From NCBI GenBank assembly GCA_900313515.1, contig OMRK01000196.1, positions 1-42,475 of the forward strand: a DNA stretch of 42,475 nucleotides, in the 5' to 3' direction. The notes beneath the pieces were generated by a model. That model had not been told where the DNA came from. It worked only from the letters and a program-made list of their open reading frames with translations, and searched no databases. Of this stretch, positions 7,515 through 20,100 are shown piece by piece. The DNA is from an uncultured bacterium. Lineage in GTDB: Bacteria; Vulcanimicrobiota; Xenobia; Xenobiales; Xenobiaceae. Every line of letters starts with the position of its first letter. Within the stretch, counting starts at the first letter, position 1. The position numbers and the translations under genes were made by a program.

Positions 7515-8195
7515 CTAATTACCGAAAATCTGCGTCTTCAACCTACTCAAATCTATGTTCTGGGTGCGAGCTGCCCGACGGCGACGCCGTTCCCTGCTAT
7601 CATCGGCTTCCTCCGACAACCTATCGCGACCGCTTTCACTTCTTCTACGGTGCGAGGCTTCCGCTGCTCCATCAGCAGAGTTCTTCTCAGAGCGACGACG
7701 CCCAGAAGTTCCGAATAAACCATCATTTTCCCCCGCATCTTCTTCAAATCCAGGCGGAACCTCCAAACTGGGGAACTCTACATCGGATTCTACCTTGCCA
7801 GTTCCATGTTCGGTGGCCTTACTGGATACAGTATTCACGGCAGCCTTACCACTAACCTCGGCGCGGCTACTCGTTTGCTGGAAGTTCCAAGCCGCTCCCC
7901 GCCCACTTCCACCGACCGGATTGGCGTCTTTAGCCTGGCGACCGCTGTTTGACATGCTCTGCGCAGCAAGCTGTTCCTGCTCAACACGTTTCGCGGCCTC
8001 TTCCCGTTCCCGCTCTAAACGCTTTCTGGCCTCTTCACGGCGCATCTGAAGTTCAAGAGCCACCCTATCTAACTCGGGCAGGGGTTCCCAAGGCAAAACA
8101 TTAGGATCGGGCGCATCAAAAATAGCTCTCTTAATGCGCCTAACTTCGTCCGCCGATATGAAAACCAGAGGCACAGACAGCTTTATCCCTACCAT
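7515..8195 (-). CDS. Hypothetical protein: small ordered N-terminal domain plus a long Arg/Glu/Ser-rich disordered tail
   Basis: Good SD (AGGTGA) about 7 nt upstream of the ATG, and only 37 nt upstream of dapB on the same strand. The N-terminus MVGIKLSVPLVFISADEVRRIKRAIFDAPDPNVLPWEPLPELD looks globular; the rest is low complexity. I recognise no family. Confidence 0.6.
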   Translation of the reverse strand: MVGIKLSVPLVFISADEVRRIKRAIFDAPDPNVLPWEPLPELDRVALELQMRREEARKRLEREREEAAKRVEQEQLAAQSMSNSGRQAKDANPVGGSGRGAAWNFQQTSSRAEVSGKAAVNTVSSKATEHGTGKVESDVEFPSLEVPPGFEEDAGENDGLFGTSGRRRSEKNSADGAAEASHRRRSESGRDRLSEEADDSRERRRRRAARTQNIDLSRLKTQIFGN

Positions 8196-11501: not shown

Positions 11502-12458
11502 GTGCCAGCTTTGCTTCCGGTAGGAAGCAATCTCCGCAACAGGTACAGAATCCACAGTCCTCTGGCTCAAACTAAGTATTGCAATATTTATGTGGCCCAG
11601 GATGGCCACTTAACCAATAAGTTCTGGGTCATCAAAGAGATCAGCATTTATGGATTCTCACCGGGAGATCGCTCGAAATTGAGCCAGTTGTTTCAGGCAG
11701 AGGCCTATCAAGCCTCCGCTCTGGATCATGTGTGCCTGCCCAAGCTCATCGATTTTTTTGCTCAGGGGCAATGCTTGTACCTGGTGCGCGAATTTGTACC
11801 GGGTTTTGATTTAGCCTCGCTTTTGGAGGGCAGAAGAATCCTTCCAGAGACTGAAATTATCAACGTAGGCATTCAACTTTGCGATCTTCTCAGCTACTTG
11901 CAAAGCAAAAATTCCTTAAATAGCCTTGGTAACGACCTCAAGCTCACCAACATTGTGATGCGCAACGATGGCCGCATTGCCATGCTGGATATAGGTTTTA
12001 CAACGCTTAACGGCATTTTAAAGAGCGGTGAGGAGCAATTGCCAGCCTATCCTCCGCCCGAGCAGTTTACCGGCGCCTTCAGTAGCGAAAACAAAAAACT
12101 CGTCTACATGGTAGGAGCAATCTTGTACAACCTGCTCACCAATGTCAGTCCCAGCGGCGCCTCATTCGGACTGCCCGCTCTAGAAAGCCTGCGCCAAGGA
12201 CTCTCAGCGTCGACTAAATCTACGGTCAGCAAGGCCATGCGCAACGATCCGCGTGATCGTTTCAATAATCTGTCCGACCTGCGCAACGGTTTGGTTAAGT
12301 CTTACCAGATAGCGGCTAAGCGAGCTGGAATGAAACCTACCGGTTCCATGGCCGGAGAGTCCTCGCCTCCGCCCAGCTGGCTTTGGATATTGGGCATGAT
12401 TTTTGCCTGTCTGATAGGTGGGGCAATGGTGGTTATTTATCAGATGTTTTTGAGATAA
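11502..12458 (+). CDS. Atypical Hanks-type Ser/Thr protein kinase-like protein, C-terminally TM-anchored
   Basis: GTG start. Kinase-fold landmarks: WVIKE (VAIK Lys), GNDLKLTNIVM (catalytic loop with HRD changed to GND; Asp and Asn kept), LDIGF (DFG changed to DIG), PPPEQF (APE-like). The Gly-rich loop is absent (LAQTKYCNIY). C-terminal TM segment: WLWILGMIFACLIGGAMVVIY. Confidence 0.75.
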   Translation: MPALLPVGSNLRNRYRIHSPLAQTKYCNIYVAQDGHLTNKFWVIKEISIYGFSPGDRSKLSQLFQAEAYQASALDHVCLPKLIDFFAQGQCLYLVREFVPGFDLASLLEGRRILPETEIINVGIQLCDLLSYLQSKNSLNSLGNDLKLTNIVMRNDGRIAMLDIGFTTLNGILKSGEEQLPAYPPPEQFTGAFSSENKKLVYMVGAILYNLLTNVSPSGASFGLPALESLRQGLSASTKSTVSKAMRNDPRDRFNNLSDLRNGLVKSYQIAAKRAGMKPTGSMAGESSPPPSWLWILGMIFACLIGGAMVVIYQMFLR

Positions 12459-12776: not shown

Positions 12777-15554
12777 ATGTTTAATCCAGGTGCGATCATA
12801 GGTACTCATTACAAGGTAGTCCGCCTTTTGGGCCAAGGCGGTATGAGCAACATATACCTTTGTGAAGATACCCATCTTTTCAATAAGGTGTGGGCTGTCA
12901 AGGAATTTACGGCAACCTACGCCGATCCACAGGAGCAAGCCAATGCTTTGGGTAGTTTCGAACGTGAGGCCCGTTTACTGTCTGCTCTTTCGCACCCCAA
13001 CCTGCCGACTATAAACGAGTATTTTCAGTTTCAGGGCCATTATTACCTGGCCATGGAATATTTGAAGGGCAAAGATTTAGGTAAGATTATCGAAGAGAAT
13101 AACGGACCGCTGCCGGAAATGGACGTGGTAGACTGGGGCACCCAGATGGCCACGGTGCTTTATTACCTGCATTGCCAAAAACCCGTGCCCATTATTTTTC
13201 GCGACGTCAAACCTAGCAACATAATTATATTAGACGGCATGGTTAAGCTGATCGACTTCGGCATTGCCCGCCTATTCACCCCCGGTAAGCGTGGCGACAC
13301 CATGCGCATAGGTTCCCCAGGGTACGCTCCTCCCGAGCAGTACAATGGTCAAACCGATCAGCGTTCCGATATCTACGCCCTAGGAGTCACTCTGCACCAG
13401 GCTATAACAGGTAAGGATCCTACGTTATCACCTAATCCCTTCGTCATTCCGCCGGTGCTCACTATTAACCCTCAAGCCTCTCCCCAGTTGGCGGCGATTA
13501 TCGAAAAATCTACTCAGTTGGTTCCCGAAGATCGCTACCAGAGCATGCTGGAGGTCAAACGCGATCTGCGCAATCTCCTGATGTCTAAACGTGGCATGCG
13601 CGGCATGACCACTCCCAATATGGGCGCCGTGCCCCCAAATCTTATGCAGGCGACCGCACCTTTCTCCGTAGCCACTAACGGTCAGACCGCTCCCCAAGGA
13701 GCTCCGGTGGTAGCGGCCAACCAGCTTCCTCCCTCCAATGCGGCAGCTCAACCTGGGCAAGCTCAGCCGTCCGCACCTAGCAACGTCCAGACTCCGGCTG
13801 CACCGGCAGCAGATGGGCTTCGCGGTCGCACCAGCGTGGTCTCCCCTGCCAGCATGCCGCCCACCTCCATCCCTGGTCAGTCAGAAAAAGCTGTTGGTCC
13901 CGGATCTGCAGGTAACCAGAATGTTCCAACAACCGATACCTCCGTTGCGAATAACCGTCCGCAAGCACCACCAGTTATAGTGACGGTAGATGGAGGAATC
14001 CCAGAAGATAGCTTCGGCAGTAAGGTGAAACGTTTTCTTTTCCTGACTGCTAGTTGGGGAATAACCGCTGCCTGTGCGGCAGTGATAGTTGGTTTGTGGA
14101 CTCCCTGGATGCCGACTCCAGCGCCTCTTACCTCCAGTGCCACCCAACTTACGGCTGCCCTGCTACCTAAGCAAGACGGTCTACCACCGCTGTCGGTCGA
14201 TAATTACCGCTCTATTTATCAGTATGCTCCCGATCGTTTGGCTGCAGTTAAGGCCCTAGATGACTACTTAGCAAAGCATGGCGATGATCTTCCCGCCTCT
14301 TTACAGCGCCTCAATTTGGACGTGCTTAAAAGTCAGTATGCCTTAGAAGAAGAGACTCGAGGCGGTCAGACCTGTCTGCGCATGGTTGACAAGTCGTCTT
14401 CCAAGTCTGCTTCACAGCATTCAAATACAGCATCCCGAGCTAGCAGCTTCAAAAAACTCACCGGGGCAGCTAACACGATAGCTGTAATAGTTCCCGAGTC
14501 ACCCGAAGCTGGCGCTCCCGTTCTGCGCGGTGTGCTCGCAGCTCAGAAGGCTTTACAGAATTATCACGGTTTCAGAGGACAGGGAGTGATGATCAATCCC
14601 ATTGTGGAAGATGATCTAAGACAGATAGATTTTCGATTGTCCAGTCAGATTTTTGCCGACGCTCCTATGCCCCAGCCCAACACCTTCAATTCCCAAGCCA
14701 TTCTAAGCTTAACCGACGTAAGTTCAATCTGGCAGGGAAGATCCAAAATTCAGGCTCCTAAGTTTTACACAAAGCTGGATAACTCCAGCAAAAGCGTTAC
14801 CCCTGCAGCAGTAAAAAGCTCCAGTGTCAAAAAAAGTACGGTTCAAATAACCCTGCCAACGCTGGCCGACACTATGGGCGTTTCTGTGCAGCGCAACCAC
14901 CCCACACAGCCTTTCTACACTTTGGACATTCAAGAGATAGCTCCCAAGCTCGCAGTTCTTCCTCAGGCAACCAACAGCAAGGAGCAAACGCCTTCCGAGC
15001 CGGAAAAGGTCAACAGCGGAGACAGCGCCGGTTCAAAATATTTCACAATACCAGATGTCCTCATTCCCAACGCTAAAAAAATTACGATAAAGGGACTGGC
15101 CGAGCAAAAGAAAGGAACTGTTTTTATCACTCTGGGGCAATATTTAGCAGCTAAAAGCAGCCTCCTTGAAGCTAAATTGCCGAAATCGCTACAAATCGTG
15201 ATAATTGTACCATGGATAGAGGCGCTAAAAGGTGAAACCCAGCCAGACGCCTGGGTTAAGAACGGACAGCTACAAGTTTGGTCTCTGCTATCTTACGCCC
15301 ATCCTCACAGTCAAGCAGTTGAACTGCTCAATACCGGGATTATCGACACTCGTGCAGTCAATATTGCCTCGGCCTACGCACAGTTGCAAGCAGCCGATGC
15401 CTTTACACTAGAAGCAGTTGGCTTGCGTAACTCTTCCGGAGTTTTCAAAGGTGTACTGGCCAAGTATGATTCAGGGATCAGCAAATTTGAAACTCTGCCG
15501 TGCCAAAGCTTTGATTGGAAAGCTGATGGCCTGCACCGCCACAACTCACAATGA
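12777..15554 (+). CDS. Membrane Ser/Thr protein kinase (Hanks type) with a Pro/Ala/Gln-rich linker, one TM helix and a ~480-aa ectodomain
   Basis: LGQGGMSNIY (Gly loop), WAVKEF, IIFRDVKPSNIIL, KLIDFGIAR and GSPGYAPPEQ. TM segment: FLFLTASWGITAACAAVIVGLW (about 14037-14102). The ectodomain contains IAVIVPESPEAGAPVLRGVLAAQKALQ...GQGVMINPIVEDD, reminiscent of type 1 periplasmic binding proteins. Confidence 0.9.
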   Translation: MFNPGAIIGTHYKVVRLLGQGGMSNIYLCEDTHLFNKVWAVKEFTATYADPQEQANALGSFEREARLLSALSHPNLPTINEYFQFQGHYYLAMEYLKGKDLGKIIEENNGPLPEMDVVDWGTQMATVLYYLHCQKPVPIIFRDVKPSNIIILDGMVKLIDFGIARLFTPGKRGDTMRIGSPGYAPPEQYNGQTDQRSDIYALGVTLHQAITGKDPTLSPNPFVIPPVLTINPQASPQLAAIIEKSTQLVPEDRYQSMLEVKRDLRNLLMSKRGMRGMTTPNMGAVPPNLMQATAPFSVATNGQTAPQGAPVVAANQLPPSNAAAQPGQAQPSAPSNVQTPAAPAADGLRGRTSVVSPASMPPTSIPGQSEKAVGPGSAGNQNVPTTDTSVANNRPQAPPVIVTVDGGIPEDSFGSKVKRFLFLTASWGITAACAAVIVGLWTPWMPTPAPLTSSATQLTAALLPKQDGLPPLSVDNYRSIYQYAPDRLAAVKALDDYLAKHGDDLPASLQRLNLDVLKSQYALEEETRGGQTCLRMVDKSSSKSASQHSNTASRASSFKKLTGAANTIAVIVPESPEAGAPVLRGVLAAQKALQNYHGFRGQGVMINPIVEDDLRQIDFRLSSQIFADAPMPQPNTFNSQAILSLTDVSSIWQGRSKIQAPKFYTKLDNSSKSVTPAAVKSSSVKKSTVQITLPTLADTMGVSVQRNHPTQPFYTLDIQEIAPKLAVLPQATNSKEQTPSEPEKVNSGDSAGSKYFTIPDVLIPNAKKITIKGLAEQKKGTVFITLGQYLAAKSSLLEAKLPKSLQIVIIVPWIEALKGETQPDAWVKNGQLQVWSLLSYAHPHSQAVELLNTGIIDTRAVNIASAYAQLQAADAFTLEAVGLRNSSGVFKGVLAKYDSGISKFETLPCQSFDWKADGLHRHNSQ

Positions 15555-15698: not shown

Positions 15699-16421
15699 AT
15701 GATTTTTAAACGGATTATCTACTGCGTAGCGGCATTTCTGCTGAGTTGTTCCTTGGGGCTTTTCATATCGGGAGACTTGGCTCATGGTTTGGGGCTTCCC
15801 ACCGAAAAGCTGTGGATTAGATTTCTCCTTAGTTTTTTCGTAGGCTTGGTGGGAACACTCATCTTCTATGGTGCCTCTCAGAAGCTTATCCATCTGGCCG
15901 AAGAGACCGATCCAGACTTCACTCAGCAGCAACAACAGTGGGCTTGGCTTAAGCCCGCAGGTGTGGTAGCTCGCTCACCTTACCCGATAAATAAAGAACA
16001 GATTATCATAGGACGTGACATAACTTCCGATATACTACTGTGCAACGACTCCATATCTCGCCGCCATGCTGAAGTGTTGCGCTCTGCCGAAGGATGGAGC
16101 GTCCACGATCTAGGTAGCAGTAACGGAACCTTTGTAAACGGCCAGCGTATAGAAGCGGAAACCCTGCTGGCCGATGGCGATGTAATAACCCTTGGTGATG
16201 TCAACCTGACCTTTGAAGGCCCACGTCGTCCTCTTCCTCAGACTTCTCCCGAGCGGGTAAGCTCCATGCGTCCTATCGATCCCCAGAGCCTCGGCTTGGA
16301 CGATTTGGACACGCAGGTGCAAACATCTTCCACGCTTCCGGTAAACGATCCTAACACCGAAGTATGGCGTCCACGCCCTGACGGCAGTCGCATGCCCAAT
16401 GAATTCCCCGGCAACTACTAA
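15699..16421 (+). CDS. FHA domain-containing membrane protein
   Basis: Two N-terminal TM segments, followed by IIIGRDITSDILLCNDSISRRHAEVLRSAEGWSVHDLGSSNGTFVNGQRI. This is the FHA G-R...S-R-x-H...S-x-N-G-T-x-V-N-G pattern. Confidence 0.88.
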   Translation: MIFKRIIYCVAAFLLSCSLGLFISGDLAHGLGLPTEKLWIRFLLSFFVGLVGTLIFYGASQKLIHLAEETDPDFTQQQQQWAWLKPAGVVARSPYPINKEQIIIGRDITSDILLCNDSISRRHAEVLRSAEGWSVHDLGSSNGTFVNGQRIEAETLLADGDVITLGDVNLTFEGPRRPLPQTSPERVSSMRPIDPQSLGLDDLDTQVQTSSTLPVNDPNTEVWRPRPDGSRMPNEFPGNY

Positions 16422-16433
16422 GCCGACAACGCT

Positions 16434-17564
16434 ATGAGCGATTCCTTCAGCCTTGAGAAACATGTACTGCCGAAAACTTTGATATTTGCCGGTGGTGTGG
16501 GCGGTGCGCGCTTCCACAAAGGTTTTTACGATCTTTTTTACGGTGCTAATCGTGTGAAGCAATCCTTGGGGCCTGATTCGGTAAGCCATGAACGCAACAA
16601 CTTATCAGGTATCACTTGCAAGAAAAGTTCCCCTTATACTGGTTTCCATGACTGTACTCAAAGCGGCTCTAAGCCATGCTTTCCCAGTTTCTCTCCTGAT
16701 TTTCCGCTCCATGCTGTAATCAATACAGGCGATGATTTCGCTTGGATGGGCCTTAAGGTCTGCCCTGACCTGGACACCAACCTTTATACTCTGGCCGAAT
16801 TGAATAACGAAGAGAGAGGCTGGGGATTAAAGAATGACACCTGGTCCGGCCTCTCCATGCTTAAACGCTGGCCAGAGAACCCATGCTGGTTCAATTTAGG
16901 TGATGCCGACCTAGCTTTCAGTCTGGAACGAACCTTACTGTTGCGTGAAGGGCTAAACCTAGCGCAGATCTGCTGTCGACTGGCCGAAGGCCTGGGACTT
17001 AAACCAGAAATATGGCCCATGTGTCTGGAAGAGGTCACCACATATGTAGACACTTATCAAGGTAGCCTGCCTTTTCAAGAATACTTTGTTAAACAAAAGG
17101 CCAAGCCGCTCCCCACCGGATTCACCTACAAAGGTTTAGACAAGGCTAAGCCTTTACCACATCTTTTGGAACTTATTCAGCAGGCCCAGCTCATCCTCAT
17201 CGCTCCGTCCAATCCCTTTGTAAGCATACTGCCTATTTTAGGTTTGGCCGGAATCAAGCCCGCTCTACAGAAAAGCCCGTCTCTAAAAATAGCTATAAGT
17301 CCTCTGGAAGGCGGTCGAGCTTTTAAAGGGCCACTGGTAGAAATGCTGAAAGCGGCTCAACTTCCCGTCTCCGCCTCAGGAGTGGCCCATCTTTACCGTG
17401 ATTGGCTGGACATATTCGTAATGTCATCGGTGGATGCCCCGTTGGGAAGCTCAGTGGAAAAGATGGGTATAAAACCAATCTTTACCGATGTAACACTATC
17501 CAGCCCACAAGACAGAAGCAGATTGACGACCTTCGTTCTCGATATTGCCCAGAAATTTTCCTGA
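16434..17564 (+). CDS. cofD: CofD/FbiA family 2-phospho-L-lactate (or enolpyruvyl-phosphate) transferase homologue
   Basis: IFAGGVGGARF, VINTGDDFAWMGLKVCPDLDTNLYTL, RGWGLKNDTW, WFNLGDADLA, LIAPSNPFVSILPIL and SPLEGGRAFKGP follow the order and wording I recall for M. tuberculosis FbiA/CofD. The PSNP motif argues against the YvcK branch. Starts 12 nt after the FHA gene. A ~30-aa extra segment follows the first Gly-rich motif. Confidence 0.82.
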   Translation: MSDSFSLEKHVLPKTLIFAGGVGGARFHKGFYDLFYGANRVKQSLGPDSVSHERNNLSGITCKKSSPYTGFHDCTQSGSKPCFPSFSPDFPLHAVINTGDDFAWMGLKVCPDLDTNLYTLAELNNEERGWGLKNDTWSGLSMLKRWPENPCWFNLGDADLAFSLERTLLLREGLNLAQICCRLAEGLGLKPEIWPMCLEEVTTYVDTYQGSLPFQEYFVKQKAKPLPTGFTYKGLDKAKPLPHLLELIQQAQLILIAPSNPFVSILPILGLAGIKPALQKSPSLKIAISPLEGGRAFKGPLVEMLKAAQLPVSASGVAHLYRDWLDIFVMSSVDAPLGSSVEKMGIKPIFTDVTLSSPQDRSRLTTFVLDIAQKFS

Positions 17565-17628: not shown

Positions 17629-20100
17629 ATGTCAGCAAAACTAAAACGTTACGTTATCGAATATATACTTGCGGCAATATTGTCCTGTTTAGCTGCTTCG
17701 CTTCTATTTACCCCCGCCTGGATAAATGGAAGCCTTATTTATGCTGGCGATCTGGGAGGGTCCGACCTTTTAGACATGAACCTACCCCTTCGCCACCTGG
17801 CTGCGAAGTCAGTAAAAGATGGTTCCCTGCCGTTGTGGCGTCCGGAGATAGGTTGTGGTTTCCCACTTTTGGCAGAAGGGCAAGCGGGAGTTTTTTACCC
17901 CCTGACCCTGCCACTGTTTTTAATCTTTTCCACCGTTTGGTCTTCAAATTTGAGCATAATCCTAACTTTGGCGGCGGCCGCCTGGGGGGGGTATATACTT
18001 GGGCGCGTCCATGGCCTGTCTAAACCCGCCAGTGCCTTTACGGGTTGCACTGTAGCCTTTAGCCCCATCCTAGTCTTCCGCTTAAAGCACATAAATATGA
18101 TACAGGTGGCGGCCTGGCTACCGCTTTCACTAGCGGCAATCAAAGTTATGGTGAGCTCTGCGATAGAACTAACCTCGACTCAAAACGGACCAGCAGGTGC
18201 CGATAAATCGGCTCACCTTACCTCTCCAAGCCAACATTCAACAGTTGTGTGCCCACCGACACTTCGCCTAAAGTTAAGTTCTCTAACACTCGCTCTATGT
18301 TGGCTTGTACAAATATTGGCAGGCCATCCCCACGCCGCCTATATATGCGGACTAGCCTGCCTAATTTACGCTACAGTTTTGCTGCTATCCCCGTTAATTA
18401 CGGGAAAAAGTCGAGTCAGACTACTCAAATATATCTGCTTAGTCTTATCAGGATGTGCCTTGATGAGCCTGCTTATGGGAGCCTGTCAGCTGCTACCAAC
18501 CTGGGAGTTGGTTGGGCAATCAGTTCGCAGTACCCCATGCAGTTGGCAGAACTTACAATCATTCCCCTTTGCTTTGCGTCATTTTAAACTCTTTCTAAAT
18601 CCCTTCTGTTACGAAAATCCAGCTACAGGAATGGGAGTAGCTCCCAACCAAGATGAAATAATTACAAATGGCATGTTTTGGGAATCAATGCCATACTTAG
18701 GCCTGCTCCCCCTTCTGCTATGGCCCTGTACCCTTGGGGCTTGGCGTCTTTCATCGGACGAGAATTCGACCAAACGCACTCTTATAGCGGAGCTGGCAAT
18801 CGTATCCCTAATATTTCTGTTACTGGCCCTAGGCACTTGGGGTAAAATTTACTGGGTATTGTGGAAGTTCTGCCCAGGATTCAACCTATTTCGCTTTCCA
18901 GCCAGATTTTTGATACCATTTGGCGTATCAGCCTCATTGCTGGCAGGTTTAGGTGCCGACAACCTTTTGGATACGTTTTTTAGCAATCGATCAAAAGTAG
19001 GAAAAGCTATAACAGGCTACCTGCTCACAGTCTTGGCTTTTGGCAATTTTTATTGGAGCACCAACAGCTATGTAGCCTACTTGCCCAGCGATATTTTCAT
19101 GGATTCGCCCACTACTAAACTAATTGAAGATAATTCTCGCGTTGCTTCTCCCAAATTAGGAAATTATTGGAATGTAATTGTGCGGCTGTCCGGAGGCTGG
19201 AAGAATGTTGGATACGTAGAGGATATGTTTCACACCCTTATGCCAGATTCCAACGTTTTTTGGGGAATCCGCCAGAGCGGCAAAAATAATGCACTGGGCG
19301 GTGCACTCTCACTCAAATACTATGCCGAGGTATTGCTGAAGCTTACTCAAAGCCAAAATTTTAAAACGCTAACACCTAATGGACCTCCTTCGATCGAGCT
19401 TACAGATGAAGCGATGTCTCTTTATCGAATGCACAATGTGAACTACCTGTTGAATTTTGGCTCTGCCGTAAACAAAGACCTAAAACCTTTACCCCTTATG
19501 GGCACCGCTTACCTAAAAAACCTGCGTACAGAGCTGCACGCTTATAAATTGAACATTCCCCGTCCACGGATTTATATGTTGCCTAAATTTAAAATAGCTG
19601 AACCGCAGGCTGAGATATCCTCTTTTCTTAAGACTTATTCTAAAGATATTGATAAAAGCGACACATGCATTTTCTATGATGATCAATATGAGCAGTCAAA
19701 TTTTGCCTCTGATTATGAAATTGGGCCCAAGCCCTCATCGGGTGATTCACAACCAGAACAGCTTAAAGTTGATGAATATTGCAAAATTATCTACAATACA
19801 CCCTTGATAATAGATGCAGAACTAAACACCGCAACCTTCAGAGCCTTGCTCTTTCCGGAAAATATATACCCGGCCTGGAAAGCTTATATAGACGGTAAAC
19901 CGTTGAAAATTTATAGAGCGAATTACGCTTTCATGGGATGTGTAATACCTCCGGGAAAACATTACGTGCGTTTCGAGTTTTACTCTAGATCCCTGTGGAC
20001 AGGGCTAAGCATAAGTTGCGTTGCCATGCTGGCCTTTTTAGTTTTGACAGTTTTCACAGTCTTACAAATGCGGCAAACATGTGCAACTTGCAAGGCTTGA
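17629..20100 (+). CDS. YfhO-like polytopic membrane protein (putative GT-C type glycosyltransferase), paralogue 1
   Basis: 823 aa with more than 10 TM segments. Shares GDLGGSDLLDMNLP, LPLWRPEIGCGFPLLAEGQAGVFYP, GHPHAAY, PGFNLFRFPARFLIPFG and the C-terminal YPAWKAYIDGKPLKIYRANYAFMGCVIPPGKHYVRFEF block, which I associate with the YfhO family. A GGAGA SD lies 9 nt upstream. Confidence 0.85.
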   Translation: MSAKLKRYVIEYILAAILSCLAASLLFTPAWINGSLIYAGDLGGSDLLDMNLPLRHLAAKSVKDGSLPLWRPEIGCGFPLLAEGQAGVFYPLTLPLFLIFSTVWSSNLSIILTLAAAAWGGYILGRVHGLSKPASAFTGCTVAFSPILVFRLKHINMIQVAAWLPLSLAAIKVMVSSAIELTSTQNGPAGADKSAHLTSPSQHSTVVCPPTLRLKLSSLTLALCWLVQILAGHPHAAYICGLACLIYATVLLLSPLITGKSRVRLLKYICLVLSGCALMSLLMGACQLLPTWELVGQSVRSTPCSWQNLQSFPFALRHFKLFLNPFCYENPATGMGVAPNQDEIITNGMFWESMPYLGLLPLLLWPCTLGAWRLSSDENSTKRTLIAELAIVSLIFLLLALGTWGKIYWVLWKFCPGFNLFRFPARFLIPFGVSASLLAGLGADNLLDTFFSNRSKVGKAITGYLLTVLAFGNFYWSTNSYVAYLPSDIFMDSPTTKLIEDNSRVASPKLGNYWNVIVRLSGGWKNVGYVEDMFHTLMPDSNVFWGIRQSGKNNALGGALSLKYYAEVLLKLTQSQNFKTLTPNGPPSIELTDEAMSLYRMHNVNYLLNFGSAVNKDLKPLPLMGTAYLKNLRTELHAYKLNIPRPRIYMLPKFKIAEPQAEISSFLKTYSKDIDKSDTCIFYDDQYEQSNFASDYEIGPKPSSGDSQPEQLKVDEYCKIIYNTPLIIDAELNTATFRALLFPENIYPAWKAYIDGKPLKIYRANYAFMGCVIPPGKHYVRFEFYSRSLWTGLSISCVAMLAFLVLTVFTVLQMRQTCATCKA
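17984..17991 (+). repeat. G8 homopolymer inside paralogue 1 (codons W119-G-G)
   Basis: cctGGGGGGGGtat, reading TGG GGG GGG TAT in frame. Confidence 0.95.

What the first reader, a model, noticed from the sequence alone, without database searches (positions are those of the whole stretch)
16434..17564. Bona fide CofD/FbiA homologue without any other F420 biosynthesis gene nearby, tightly coupled to an FHA gene
The protein follows the CofD/FbiA motif series (GGVGGARF, NTGDD..GL.VCPDLDT..YTL, RGWG, WF.LGD.DLA, APSNP..SI.PIL, SP..G....KGP) and not the YvcK-type series.
- CofD normally sits with cofC/cofE/fbiC (cofGH). None of these is in the window.
- Instead it starts 12 nt after an FHA gene and immediately precedes the YfhO-like array.
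- It also carries a ~30-aa extra Ser/Cys/Pro-rich segment after the first Gly motif (about 16510-16700).
- CofD chemistry transfers a phospho-linked small acid from a nucleotide-diphosphate donor to an alcohol. A repurposed homologue could build an unusual phosphodiester-linked donor or decoration.
- It could equally be an ordinary F420 gene that is merely a neighbour.
Basis: partly seen in the sequence, partly recalled or inferred. Interest (0 to 1): 0.6.

Follow-up and report, generated by a model that had tools for sequence, protein, structure and literature searches.

The report
Leftover F420 gene in gut bacterium
This is a genuine, still-selected CofD enzyme left over from an ancestral F420 cofactor operon in a gut bacterium (Candidatus Bruticola) whose whole genus keeps only the last two F420 assembly steps, so it probably depends on deazaflavin made by neighbours and on a still-unknown way of activating the side-chain donor.

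Summary
ORF 16434-17564 encodes a true CofD/FbiA-type transferase. It starts 12 nt after an FHA gene and ends 64 nt before the YfhO array.

The context is inherited, not purpose-built.
- Across Xenobia the fixed core is kinase-like, kinase, FHA.
- Sister genera have cofD-cofC-cofE plus an F420-type LLM directly downstream of that core.
- Bruticola has cofD-YfhO-TPR there.
- A goat-rumen lineage has YfhO directly after FHA, with no cofD.

So YfhO goes with the kinase/FHA core, and cofD is a remnant of the F420 operon.

All 10 Bruticola genomes (89-98% complete) keep CofD and CofE. Eight Bruticola-group MAGs besides this genome keep an F420-type LLM oxidoreductase. None has CofC or CofH. CofD is under purifying selection (dN/dS 0.08-0.20). 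It keeps both metal-binding aspartates but has a clade-fixed His163Ser change.

Best reading: F420 tail assembly on scavenged deazaflavin, with the donor-activating enzyme unidentified. Repurposing toward the envelope is unlikely but not excluded. Interest is moderate.

The parts
11502..12458 (+). Kinase-like protein (318 aa), first gene of the conserved kinase-like/kinase/FHA core
   Evidence: Pfam Pkinase 51.8 bits. It is 38-73% identical and in the same position in Bruticola, in genus g5 and in other Xenobia lineages.
12777..15554 (+). Hanks-type Ser/Thr kinase (925 aa)
   Evidence: Pfam Pkinase 136 bits. The kinase domain is 57-77% identical across Xenobia loci and always lies upstream of FHA.
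15699..16421 (+). FHA-domain protein (240 aa); its stop codon is 12 nt before the CofD start
   Evidence: Pfam FHA 75.4 bits at residues 102-166. Junction sequence read. dN/dS within the genus is 0.01-0.04.
16434..17564 (+). CofD/FbiA-type transferase (376 aa), the finding itself
   Evidence: TIGR01819 227.8 bits. PDB sequence matches to M. mazei CofD (1.5e-45) and M. smegmatis FbiA (2.1e-43). AF2 model pLDDT 89.3 and pTM 0.88. Foldseek TM 0.92 on the 3c3d chain. dN/dS 0.08-0.20.
16545..16700 (+). Clade-specific insert (residues ~38-89) between helix 1 and strand 2; Ser/Pro/Cys-rich and predicted to be disordered
   Evidence: The G30-N97 segment is 67 aa here, mostly 39 aa in other clade members and a median of 15 aa in other CofDs. 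The sequence is poorly conserved among congeners. pLDDT is 42-67 with no secondary structure.
16731..16769 (+). Catalytic metal-binding aspartates: D100 (GDD motif, codon 16731-16733) and D112 (PDLD motif, codon 16767-16769)
   Evidence: They align with FbiA Asp45 and Asp57, which coordinate the catalytic metal ion (PMC7253369; PMC8498797). Both columns are invariant in alignment A1.
16920..16922 (+). Ser163 codon: clade-fixed replacement of a 97%-conserved His (motif DLATH becomes DLA-[LFV]-S); aligns with FbiA H108 and M. mazei CofD H96
   Evidence: Ser in 20 of 20 clade members against His in 97% of 118 other CofDs. The only other carriers are three sequences of an archaeal-looking lineage.
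17629..20100 (+). First YfhO-like GT-C paralogue, the downstream neighbour (not part of F420 chemistry)
   Evidence: Pfam YfhO. In congeners a single YfhO overlaps the CofD stop by about 11 nt. In the goat-rumen lineage L193, YfhO follows FHA directly with no CofD.

Best explanation
The gene is a vertically inherited, still functional CofD: a phosphotransferase that joins a phospho-acid side chain to the ribityl hydroxyl of the deazaflavin FO.

It is the last survivor, at its original position, of an ancestral Xenobiaceae operon: kinase-like, kinase, FHA, cofD, cofC, cofE, F420-type LLM. In the host-associated, genome-reduced genus Candidatus Bruticola, cofC, the in-cluster LLM and the FO synthase genes cofG/cofH were lost. 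cofE moved elsewhere (contig C135). A YfhO-TPR module came to lie directly after cofD.

**Shown:**
- family, fold and metal-binding residues
- purifying selection
- genus-wide retention of CofD and CofE
- retention of one F420-type LLM oxidoreductase in this genome and in eight Bruticola-group MAGs
- genus-wide absence of CofC and CofH (CofG tested in this genome only)
- the ancestral operon in sister genera
- kinase-FHA-YfhO without CofD in a rumen lineage

**Inferred:**
- The cell takes up FO, or a later F420 intermediate, released by gut methanogens.
- CofD and CofE finish or re-tailor the cofactor for the LLM enzyme.
- The activated donor that CofC normally supplies comes from an unidentified enzyme, or is a different donor.
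- The clade-fixed His163Ser change and the inserted loop may be adaptations to that change.

The tight spacing to FHA is inherited operon architecture. The adjacency to YfhO is secondary and not a functional partnership.
For: **CofD identity.**
- Family scores and PDB sequence matches.
- Foldseek TM 0.92 to M. mazei CofD against about 0.62 for YvcK-type structures.
- D100 and D112 align with the FbiA metal ligands Asp45 and Asp57.
- About 62 of 71 near-invariant CofD columns are kept.

**The gene is functional.**
- The frame is intact in 10 of 10 genomes.
- dN/dS is 0.08-0.20.
- The exact protein is on 38 contigs.

**F420 context is retained.**
- CofE scores over its cut-off in 10 of 10 Bruticola genomes.
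- CofE is 54% identical to the in-cluster CofE of genus g5.
- One LLM oxidoreductase has its four best NCBIfam hits in F420-dependent subfamilies (TIGR03560, 203 bits).
- That LLM is 71-80% identical in 8 Bruticola/UBP9 MAGs.

**Ancestral operon.**
- g5 and g3 loci read kinase-like, kinase, FHA, CofD, CofC, CofE, LLM on one strand with overlapping or near-touching junctions.

**The YfhO link is independent of CofD.**
- In L193 (goat rumen) FHA ends at 7681 and YfhO starts at 7686, with no CofD.

**Losses.**
- CofC: 0 of 10 genomes. CofH: 0 of 10 genomes.
- CofG is absent from this genome.
- A lineage-specific CofC profile finds nothing above 21 bits.
Against: - CofC/FbiD and CofD/FbiA are reported to work only as a coupled pair, because LPPG, EPPG and GPPG are labile (PMC8764529; PMC6450877). 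A CofD with no CofC has no known donor supply, and I found no substitute.
- No F420-reducing enzyme was found. Fno: none. FrhB: none. PNPOx/FDOR fold: 1 of 10 genomes. A single LLM cannot by itself cycle the cofactor.
- TIGR01819 scores below its equivalog cut-off.
- A 97%-conserved His is replaced throughout the clade.
- No deazaflavin importer was identified.
- All genomes are MAGs, so a systematically unbinned island cannot be fully excluded.
- The Bruticola clade sits on a long branch with biased composition, and its placement in the CofD tree is unsure.
Confidence: 0.55

Rival explanations
1. Repurposed CofD. After losing CofC and FO synthase, the enzyme now uses a different nucleotide-diphosphate donor or a different acceptor. 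It might make a phosphodiester-linked envelope precursor or decoration used with the YfhO glycosyltransferases, under kinase/FHA control.
For: - CofD is tightly coupled to YfhO in every congener, with about 11 nt of overlap.
- CofC is lost across the genus.
- His163Ser is fixed in the clade.
- The clade has a specific surface insert.
- The equivalog score is below its cut-off.
- Selection is about ten times more relaxed than on the FHA neighbour.
Against: - The same position holds a canonical cofD-cofC-cofE-LLM operon in sister genera.
- The kinase-FHA-YfhO block exists without CofD in a rumen lineage.
- CofE and an F420-type LLM are retained and well conserved. That is hard to explain if the deazaflavin product were abandoned.
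- Nearly all conserved columns, including those of the regions that form the deazaflavin pocket in FbiA (residues 69-102 and 145-189), are unchanged.
Confidence: 0.17
2. The pathway is actually complete. cofC and cofG/cofH exist but are missed, either because they lie on a genomic island that binning drops systematically, or because they are replaced by unrecognisable non-homologous enzymes. CofD would then be entirely ordinary.
For: - All genomes examined are MAGs, and this one is 88.8% complete in 282 contigs.
- Non-orthologous replacement of CofC seems to occur elsewhere. An archaeal-looking lineage pairs CofD with a TIGR00454/CobY-like NTP transferase instead of CofC.
Against: - The absence holds in 10 of 10 genomes, seven of them 95-98% complete. 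One has 20 contigs with CofD on a 628-kb contig.
- A lineage-specific CofC profile and the archaeal NTP transferase both find nothing in this genome.
- The only orphan MobA-like transferase belongs to a conserved pair with ispE that is also found in taxa not known for F420.
- Radical-SAM hits to the CofH model are only about 50 bits against a cut-off of 374.
Confidence: 0.12
3. Ligand-binding regulator rather than enzyme. Like its paralogue YvcK/GlmR/CuvA, which from my own knowledge binds UDP-GlcNAc and is a substrate of PASTA kinases, this CofD may have become a nucleotide or deazaflavin sensor. It would be phosphorylated in its disordered Ser/Thr-rich loop by the adjacent kinase and read by the FHA protein.
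For: - It is permanently adjacent to a Hanks kinase and an FHA gene.
- It has a disordered Ser/Thr/Pro-rich insert.
- It has lost its donor-supplying partner.
Against: - The catalytic aspartates and phosphate-binding motifs are fully conserved under purifying selection.
- The insert is not conserved in sequence, and Thr positions are not shared among congeners.
- The kinase/FHA adjacency predates the insert and also occurs with canonical CofDs in g3 and g5.
- A genuine YvcK is present elsewhere.
Confidence: 0.08
4. Functionless relic on its way to being lost, as has already happened in the related genera g2 and g4.
For: - F420 genes erode stepwise across Xenobiaceae: full set in g3 and g5, CofD plus CofE in g1, CofE only or nothing in g2 and g4.
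- dN/dS is higher than for the FHA neighbour.
Against: - The reading frame is intact in all 10 species-level genomes despite only about 42-62% pairwise protein identity.
- dN/dS of 0.08-0.20 is far below neutrality.
- All catalytic motifs are kept.
Confidence: 0.05

Closest known systems
CofD of Methanosarcina mazei (PDB 3C3D/3C3E/3CGW), LPPG:FO 2-phospho-L-lactate transferase
   Same: - Best sequence match (E 1.5e-45) and best fold match (TM 0.92 on the target).
- Same Rossmann-like two-domain architecture.
- Same GGxGG, NTxDD, PDLD, PSNP and KGP motifs.
- The equivalent of Asp46, reported as important for activity, is conserved as D112.
   Different: - About 52 extra disordered residues between helix 1 and strand 2.
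- His96 is replaced by Ser.
- The organism has no CofC to supply LPPG and no FO synthase.
FbiA of Mycobacterium smegmatis (PDB 6UVX, 6UW1-6UW7), EPPG:FO enolpyruvyl transferase
   Same: - E 2.1e-43 and TM 0.81-0.85.
- The metal ligands Asp45 and Asp57 are conserved as D100 and D112.
   Different: - FbiA works with FbiD and needs the FbiB nitroreductase domain to reduce dehydro-F420-0.
- Bruticola has a stand-alone CofE with no nitroreductase domain. No FbiB-C-like protein was found.
- FbiA H108 is Ser here.
The cofD-cofC-cofE (+ F420-dependent LLM) operon of sister Xenobiaceae genera (UBP9 MAGs such as UBA6111 and UBA1432) and of soil Eremiobacterota
   Same: - Same upstream kinase-like, kinase, FHA genes, with cofD in the same position.
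- CofD is 43-46% identical and CofE 54% identical.
   Different: In Bruticola, cofC and the in-cluster LLM are gone, cofE has moved, cofG/H are gone, and YfhO-TPR follows cofD.
Proposed FO or F420-precursor salvage in organisms lacking FO synthase (CofC+CofD+CofE without CofG/H)
   Same: FO synthase is absent while late F420 steps and F420-type enzymes are retained.
   Different: - The cases I know of keep CofC. They come only from earlier unchecked notes of this scan, not from papers.
- Bruticola also lacks CofC, so the donor step is unaccounted for.
- I found no description of a CofD+CofE-only organism in the papers I could search.
YvcK/GlmR/CuvA (UPF0052, TIGR01826), the CofD-related UDP-GlcNAc-binding regulators
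   Same: Same superfamily (PF01933). Association with Hanks kinases is known for YvcK-type proteins (my own knowledge, not tested here).
   Different: - TIGR01826 gives only 26.5 bits against a cut-off of 196.
- Fold similarity is much lower, TM about 0.62.
- A genuine YvcK (383 bits) is encoded elsewhere in the genome.

Membership tests
CofD/FbiA (PF01933 CofD; TIGR01819 F420_cofD) | Profile match above Pfam's gathering threshold | tested here: met
   PF01933 scores 106.5 bits against a cut-off of 30.
CofD/FbiA (PF01933 CofD; TIGR01819 F420_cofD) | Equivalog-level match to TIGR01819 (cut-off 257.45 bits) | tested here: not met
   It scores 227.8 bits over model positions 2-300 of 301. The insert splits the match into two pieces in the genome scan, so the shortfall probably reflects the insert. 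NCBI's pipeline accordingly names congeners 'CofD family protein'.
CofD/FbiA (PF01933 CofD; TIGR01819 F420_cofD) | CofD fold, closer to CofD/FbiA than to YvcK-type structures | tested here: met
   AF2 pLDDT is 89.3. Foldseek gives 3c3d E 1.6e-30 with TM 0.92, FbiA TM 0.79-0.85 and YvcK-type TM 0.60-0.65.
CofD/FbiA (PF01933 CofD; TIGR01819 F420_cofD) | Two metal-coordinating aspartates (FbiA Asp45 and Asp57; CofD Asp46) | tested here: met
   D100 and D112 align with them. Their role is stated in PMC7253369 and PMC8498797. Both are invariant in alignment A1.
CofD/FbiA (PF01933 CofD; TIGR01819 F420_cofD) | Retention of the family's near-invariant columns | tested here: inconclusive
   About 62 of 71 columns that are at least 90% conserved are kept. 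H163S is fixed in the clade (97% His elsewhere). V227, G294, G345 and M355 are also altered.
CofD/FbiA (PF01933 CofD; TIGR01819 F420_cofD) | Presence of the obligate donor-supplying partner CofC/FbiD in the genome | tested here: not met
   The best TIGR03552 hit is 22.5 bits in this genome, and 0 of 10 genomes of the genus pass. A lineage-specific profile reaches at most 21 bits.
CofD/FbiA (PF01933 CofD; TIGR01819 F420_cofD) | Presence of an FO source (CofG/CofH or FbiC) in the genome | tested here: not met
   CofG reaches at most 25 bits. CofH reaches about 50 bits against a cut-off of 374, and 0 of 10 genomes of the genus pass.
CofD/FbiA (PF01933 CofD; TIGR01819 F420_cofD) | Presence of the next pathway enzyme CofE and of an F420-dependent enzyme | tested here: met
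   CofE scores 225 bits against a cut-off of 180.65 and is present in 10 of 10 genomes. The LLM's best hits are F420-dependent subfamilies, though below their cut-offs (203 against 231). The LLM is conserved in 8 MAGs.
CofD/FbiA (PF01933 CofD; TIGR01819 F420_cofD) | Catalysis of phospho-acid transfer from LPPG, EPPG or GPPG to FO | not testable with these tools
   This needs an enzyme assay.
YvcK/GlmR (TIGR01826, UPF0052) | Profile match above the cut-off (196 bits) | tested here: not met
   It scores 26.5 bits. The genome's real YvcK is at C143:7662-9053, at 383 bits.

The most novel reading that the evidence does not exclude
Bruticola CofD belongs to a CofC-independent kind of CofD, marked by the DLATH to DLA-x-S change.

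- The change is fixed in this gut clade, which has no CofC.
- It recurs independently in an archaeal-looking lineage. There CofD is partnered with a TIGR00454/CobY-like nucleotidyltransferase instead of CofC.

Such enzymes would take their activated side chain from a different enzyme, or use a different donor. In the gut they would let a bacterium build F420, or a new deazaflavin derivative, from FO pirated from methanogens.
Probability: 0.2. Interest if true: 0.75.

Novelty: new variant of a known kind. Interest (0 to 1): 0.45.

Why it matters
- F420 biosynthesis is thought to need the coupled CofC/CofD pair. A whole gut-associated genus keeps CofD, CofE and an F420-type oxidoreductase under selection but has neither CofC nor FO synthase. 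That points either to an unrecognised donor-activating enzyme or donor, or to cofactor-precursor piracy from methanogens in animal guts.
- Either outcome would extend how and where F420 is made.
- It would also give a concrete test case, His163Ser, for what the conserved Thr-His motif of CofD does.
- On the other hand, the result removes the more exciting idea that this CofD works with the YfhO glycosyltransferase array.

Tried and rejected
1. **Orphan MobA-like NTP transferase as a CofC substitute** (C245:1553-2344; PF12804). It is not the genome's IspD. It forms a conserved pair with ispE in Bacillota, Chthonomonadales and Desulfobulbus. Rejected.
2. **GlmU-like hit on C30.** This is ordinary noise for the CofC model.
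The Xylanimonas cofD locus has cofC next to it and no ABC cassette within 10 kb. The Bruticola LLM neighbourhood holds argF and SpoVG-like genes and no transporter. Nothing was testable.
4. **Archaeal TIGR00454-like transferase and FbiB-C-like nitroreductase.** Neither has a homologue in this genome.
5. **F420-reducing enzymes.** Fno, FrhB and the PNPOx/FDOR fold were not found in the genus, apart from one PNPOx hit in 1 of 10 genomes.
6. **Horizontal transfer of CofD.** The quick tree puts the clade on a long, compositionally biased branch and does not resolve it. Conserved synteny with g5 argues for vertical descent.
7. **Role of the conserved His.** Forouhar et al. 2008 is not held, and the open papers do not mention the residue.
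9. **Promoter and terminator scan.** Counts are at chance level, so it says nothing about operon boundaries.
Full report
**1. The observation**

- It matches Pfam CofD at 106.5 bits.
- It matches TIGR01819 F420_cofD at 227.8 bits, just below the equivalog cut-off of 257.45.
- The YvcK-type model gives only 26.5 bits.
- A genuine YvcK with an N-terminal membrane segment lies elsewhere, at C143:7662-9053 (383 bits).
- Sequence search of the PDB finds M. mazei CofD (1.5e-45) and M. smegmatis FbiA (2.1e-43).
- An AlphaFold2 model built on 60 homologues has pLDDT 89.3 and pTM 0.88.
- The model superposes on 3C3D with TM 0.92 on the target. YvcK-type structures reach about 0.62.
- The FHA stop is 12 nt before the CofD ATG. 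A 64-nt spacer with GGAG precedes YfhO-1. No terminator lies between the genes.

The 'extra segment' is real but larger than stated.
- The stretch between G30 and N97 is 67 residues here.
- It is mostly 39 residues in other members of the clade.
- It is a median of 15 residues in 118 other CofDs.
- It is poorly conserved and predicted to be disordered, with pLDDT 42-67.
- The identical protein is on 38 contigs from independent assemblies.

**2. The organism and the rest of the pathway**

Names attached to near relatives place the genome in Candidatus Bruticola: family Xenobiaceae, class Xenobia, phylum Vulcanimicrobiota/Eremiobacterota. Related MAGs come from Hadza human gut and other host-associated samples. 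The genome is a 2.35-Mb MAG, 88.8% complete.

In the window's own genome:
- CofE is present on another contig (C135:9126-9938, 225 bits against a cut-off of 180.65). It is a stand-alone 270-aa protein between a PilB-like ATPase and the tsaD/rimI/tsaB/tsaE genes.
- CofC, CofG and CofH are not found.
- A CofC profile built from 17 relatives' CofC proteins also finds nothing above 21 bits.

This pattern is not a gap in one assembly. Among 41 related genomes:

| Group | CofD | CofE | CofC | CofH |
|---|---|---|---|---|
| Genus g1, Bruticola (10 genomes, 89-98% complete) | 10/10 | 10/10 | 0/10 | 0/10 |
| Sister genera g3 and g5, and order-level relatives | present | present | present | present |
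| Genera g2 and g4 | none | one genome only (G014) | none | none |

In the sister genera and the order-level relatives the three genes usually form a cofD-cofC-cofE cluster.

**3. F420 users**

- No Fno was found.
- No FrhB-type protein was found.
- Almost no PNPOx/FDOR-fold protein occurs in the genus: 1 of 10 genomes.
- One luciferase-like oxidoreductase is present at C45:16386-17354. Its four best NCBIfam hits are all F420-dependent LLM subfamilies, led by TIGR03560 at 203 bits (cut-off 231).
- That LLM is 71-80% identical in eight Bruticola/UBP9 MAGs. Its next relatives are in Chloroflexota and Actinomycetes.

So at least one plausible F420 client is kept and well conserved.

**4. What the synteny means**

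All nine congeners have kinase-like, kinase, FHA, CofD, one YfhO, a small ORF in most, then TPR. The YfhO usually overlaps the CofD stop by about 11 nt.

Searching with an FHA alignment shows that the invariant unit across Xenobia is kinase-like, kinase, FHA. What follows differs by lineage:
- **g3 and g5:** CofD, CofC, CofE and an F420-type LLM (TIGR03557 family) on the same strand, with overlapping or near-touching junctions.
- **Bruticola:** CofD, YfhO, TPR.
- **Goat-rumen MAG (L193, GC 0.40):** YfhO starts 5 nt after the FHA ORF, with no CofD.
- **Other Xenobia (L188-L192):** unrelated genes such as MerR and GGDEF.

CofD therefore sits where the F420 operon has always begun. YfhO is attached to the kinase/FHA core and does not need CofD. 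The window's CofE is 54% identical to the in-cluster CofE of g5, which fits vertical descent followed by relocation.

**5. Is the enzyme intact?**

- D100 and D112 align with FbiA Asp45 and Asp57, the ligands of the catalytic metal.
- Of 71 columns that are at least 90% conserved in 118 other CofDs, the clade keeps about 62.
- One clear clade-wide fixed change is His163 to Ser: 97% His elsewhere, Ser in 20 of 20 clade members. The motif DLATH becomes DLA-[L/F/V]-S.
- Within the genus dN/dS is 0.08-0.20. That is clear purifying selection, though about ten times weaker than on the FHA neighbour at 0.01-0.04.
- A quick tree places the clade on a long, compositionally biased branch and does not resolve its sister group.
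- Identity to g5 is 43-46% for CofD. That is no lower than the 42% of the adjacent FHA protein, so CofD is not unusually accelerated.

**6. The unresolved gap**

The literature states that LPPG, EPPG and GPPG are labile. It also states that CofC/FbiD shows no activity without CofD/FbiA and that the step proceeds only as a coupled reaction (PMC8764529; PMC6450877). A genus with CofD but no CofC therefore lacks a known donor supply.

- I rejected the one orphan MobA-like transferase in the genome. It forms a conserved pair with ispE in taxa not known for F420.
- The only other CofDs in my sample with the Thr-His to x-Ser change belong to an archaeal-looking lineage.
- There CofD follows an FbiB-C-terminal-like nitroreductase and a TIGR00454/CobY-like nucleotidyltransferase, which scores only 19.7 bits on the CofC model.
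- That is a second case in which the variant goes with the absence of a canonical CofC next to CofD.
- Bruticola has no homologue of that transferase or that nitroreductase.

**7. Verdict**

- The gene is a bona fide CofD by descent, fold and catalytic residues.
- Its coupling to FHA is inherited operon structure.
- Its link to the YfhO array is secondary.
- The interesting residue is the genus-wide CofD+CofE+LLM set without CofC and FO synthase.
- That set is best explained by dependence on externally made deazaflavin plus an unidentified donor-activation route (confidence about 0.55).
- I found no description of such a CofC-less arrangement in the papers I could search or in earlier notes of this scan.

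Noticed in passing
L194:8154-10927 (JGI metagenome contig, 190 kb; same arrangement in L195, L196, L197): An archaeal-looking lineage (intein-bearing RtcB and LAGLIDADG genes nearby) has this operon: unknown 184-193-aa membrane-like protein, TIGR00454/CobY-like NTP transferase (only 19.7 bits on the CofC model), FbiB-C-terminal-like nitroreductase, then CofD (321 bits). Its CofD carries the same DLATH to DLA-M-S change as Bruticola. This is a candidate non-orthologous replacement of CofC.
   Followed up: partly
L185:3779-10973, L187:3797-10927 and L183:1682-5415 (Xenobiaceae genera g5 and g3): A complete cofD-cofC-cofE plus F420-type LLM operon lies directly downstream of kinase-like, kinase and FHA genes, with overlapping junctions. 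This raises the possibility that F420 synthesis in these bacteria is under Ser/Thr-kinase/FHA control. Not tested.
   Followed up: partly
L193:3710-11688 (goat-rumen MAG RGIG3558, GC 0.40): A related host-associated lineage has kinase-like, kinase and FHA followed 5 nt later by a single YfhO, with a TPR gene on the opposite strand and no CofD. This shows that the YfhO module belongs with the kinase/FHA core.
   Followed up: yes
Genome contig C45:16386-17354 (outside the window): The only LLM-class oxidoreductase of the genome. Its best hits are F420-dependent subfamilies (TIGR03560, 203 bits). It is 71-80% identical across Bruticola MAGs and is flanked by argF and two SpoVG-like ORFs. Its substrate is unknown.
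   Followed up: partly
Genome contig C245:591-2344 (outside the window): ispE overlaps by 4 nt a 263-aa MobA-like NTP transferase that is not the genome's IspD (that is on C112). The same pair recurs in Bacillota, Chthonomonadales and Desulfobulbus MAGs. It is a conserved pair of unknown function.
   Followed up: partly
Genome contig C143:7662-9053 (outside the window): A true YvcK-type protein (TIGR01826, 383 bits) has an N-terminal extension of about 110 aa containing hydrophobic segments. YvcK proteins are usually soluble.
   Followed up: no
Relatives G010, G012, G014 and G015 (genera g2 and g4): F420 genes erode stepwise across Xenobiaceae. g3 and g5 have the full set, Bruticola has CofD plus CofE, G014 has CofE only, and the other g2 and g4 genomes have none.
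   Followed up: partly
L031:4973-5542 and its equivalents in other congeners: A 166-216-aa ORF with no family match lies between YfhO and the TPR gene in most Bruticola genomes. It has no counterpart of at least 100 aa in the window, where the YfhO array has expanded to four copies.
   Followed up: no
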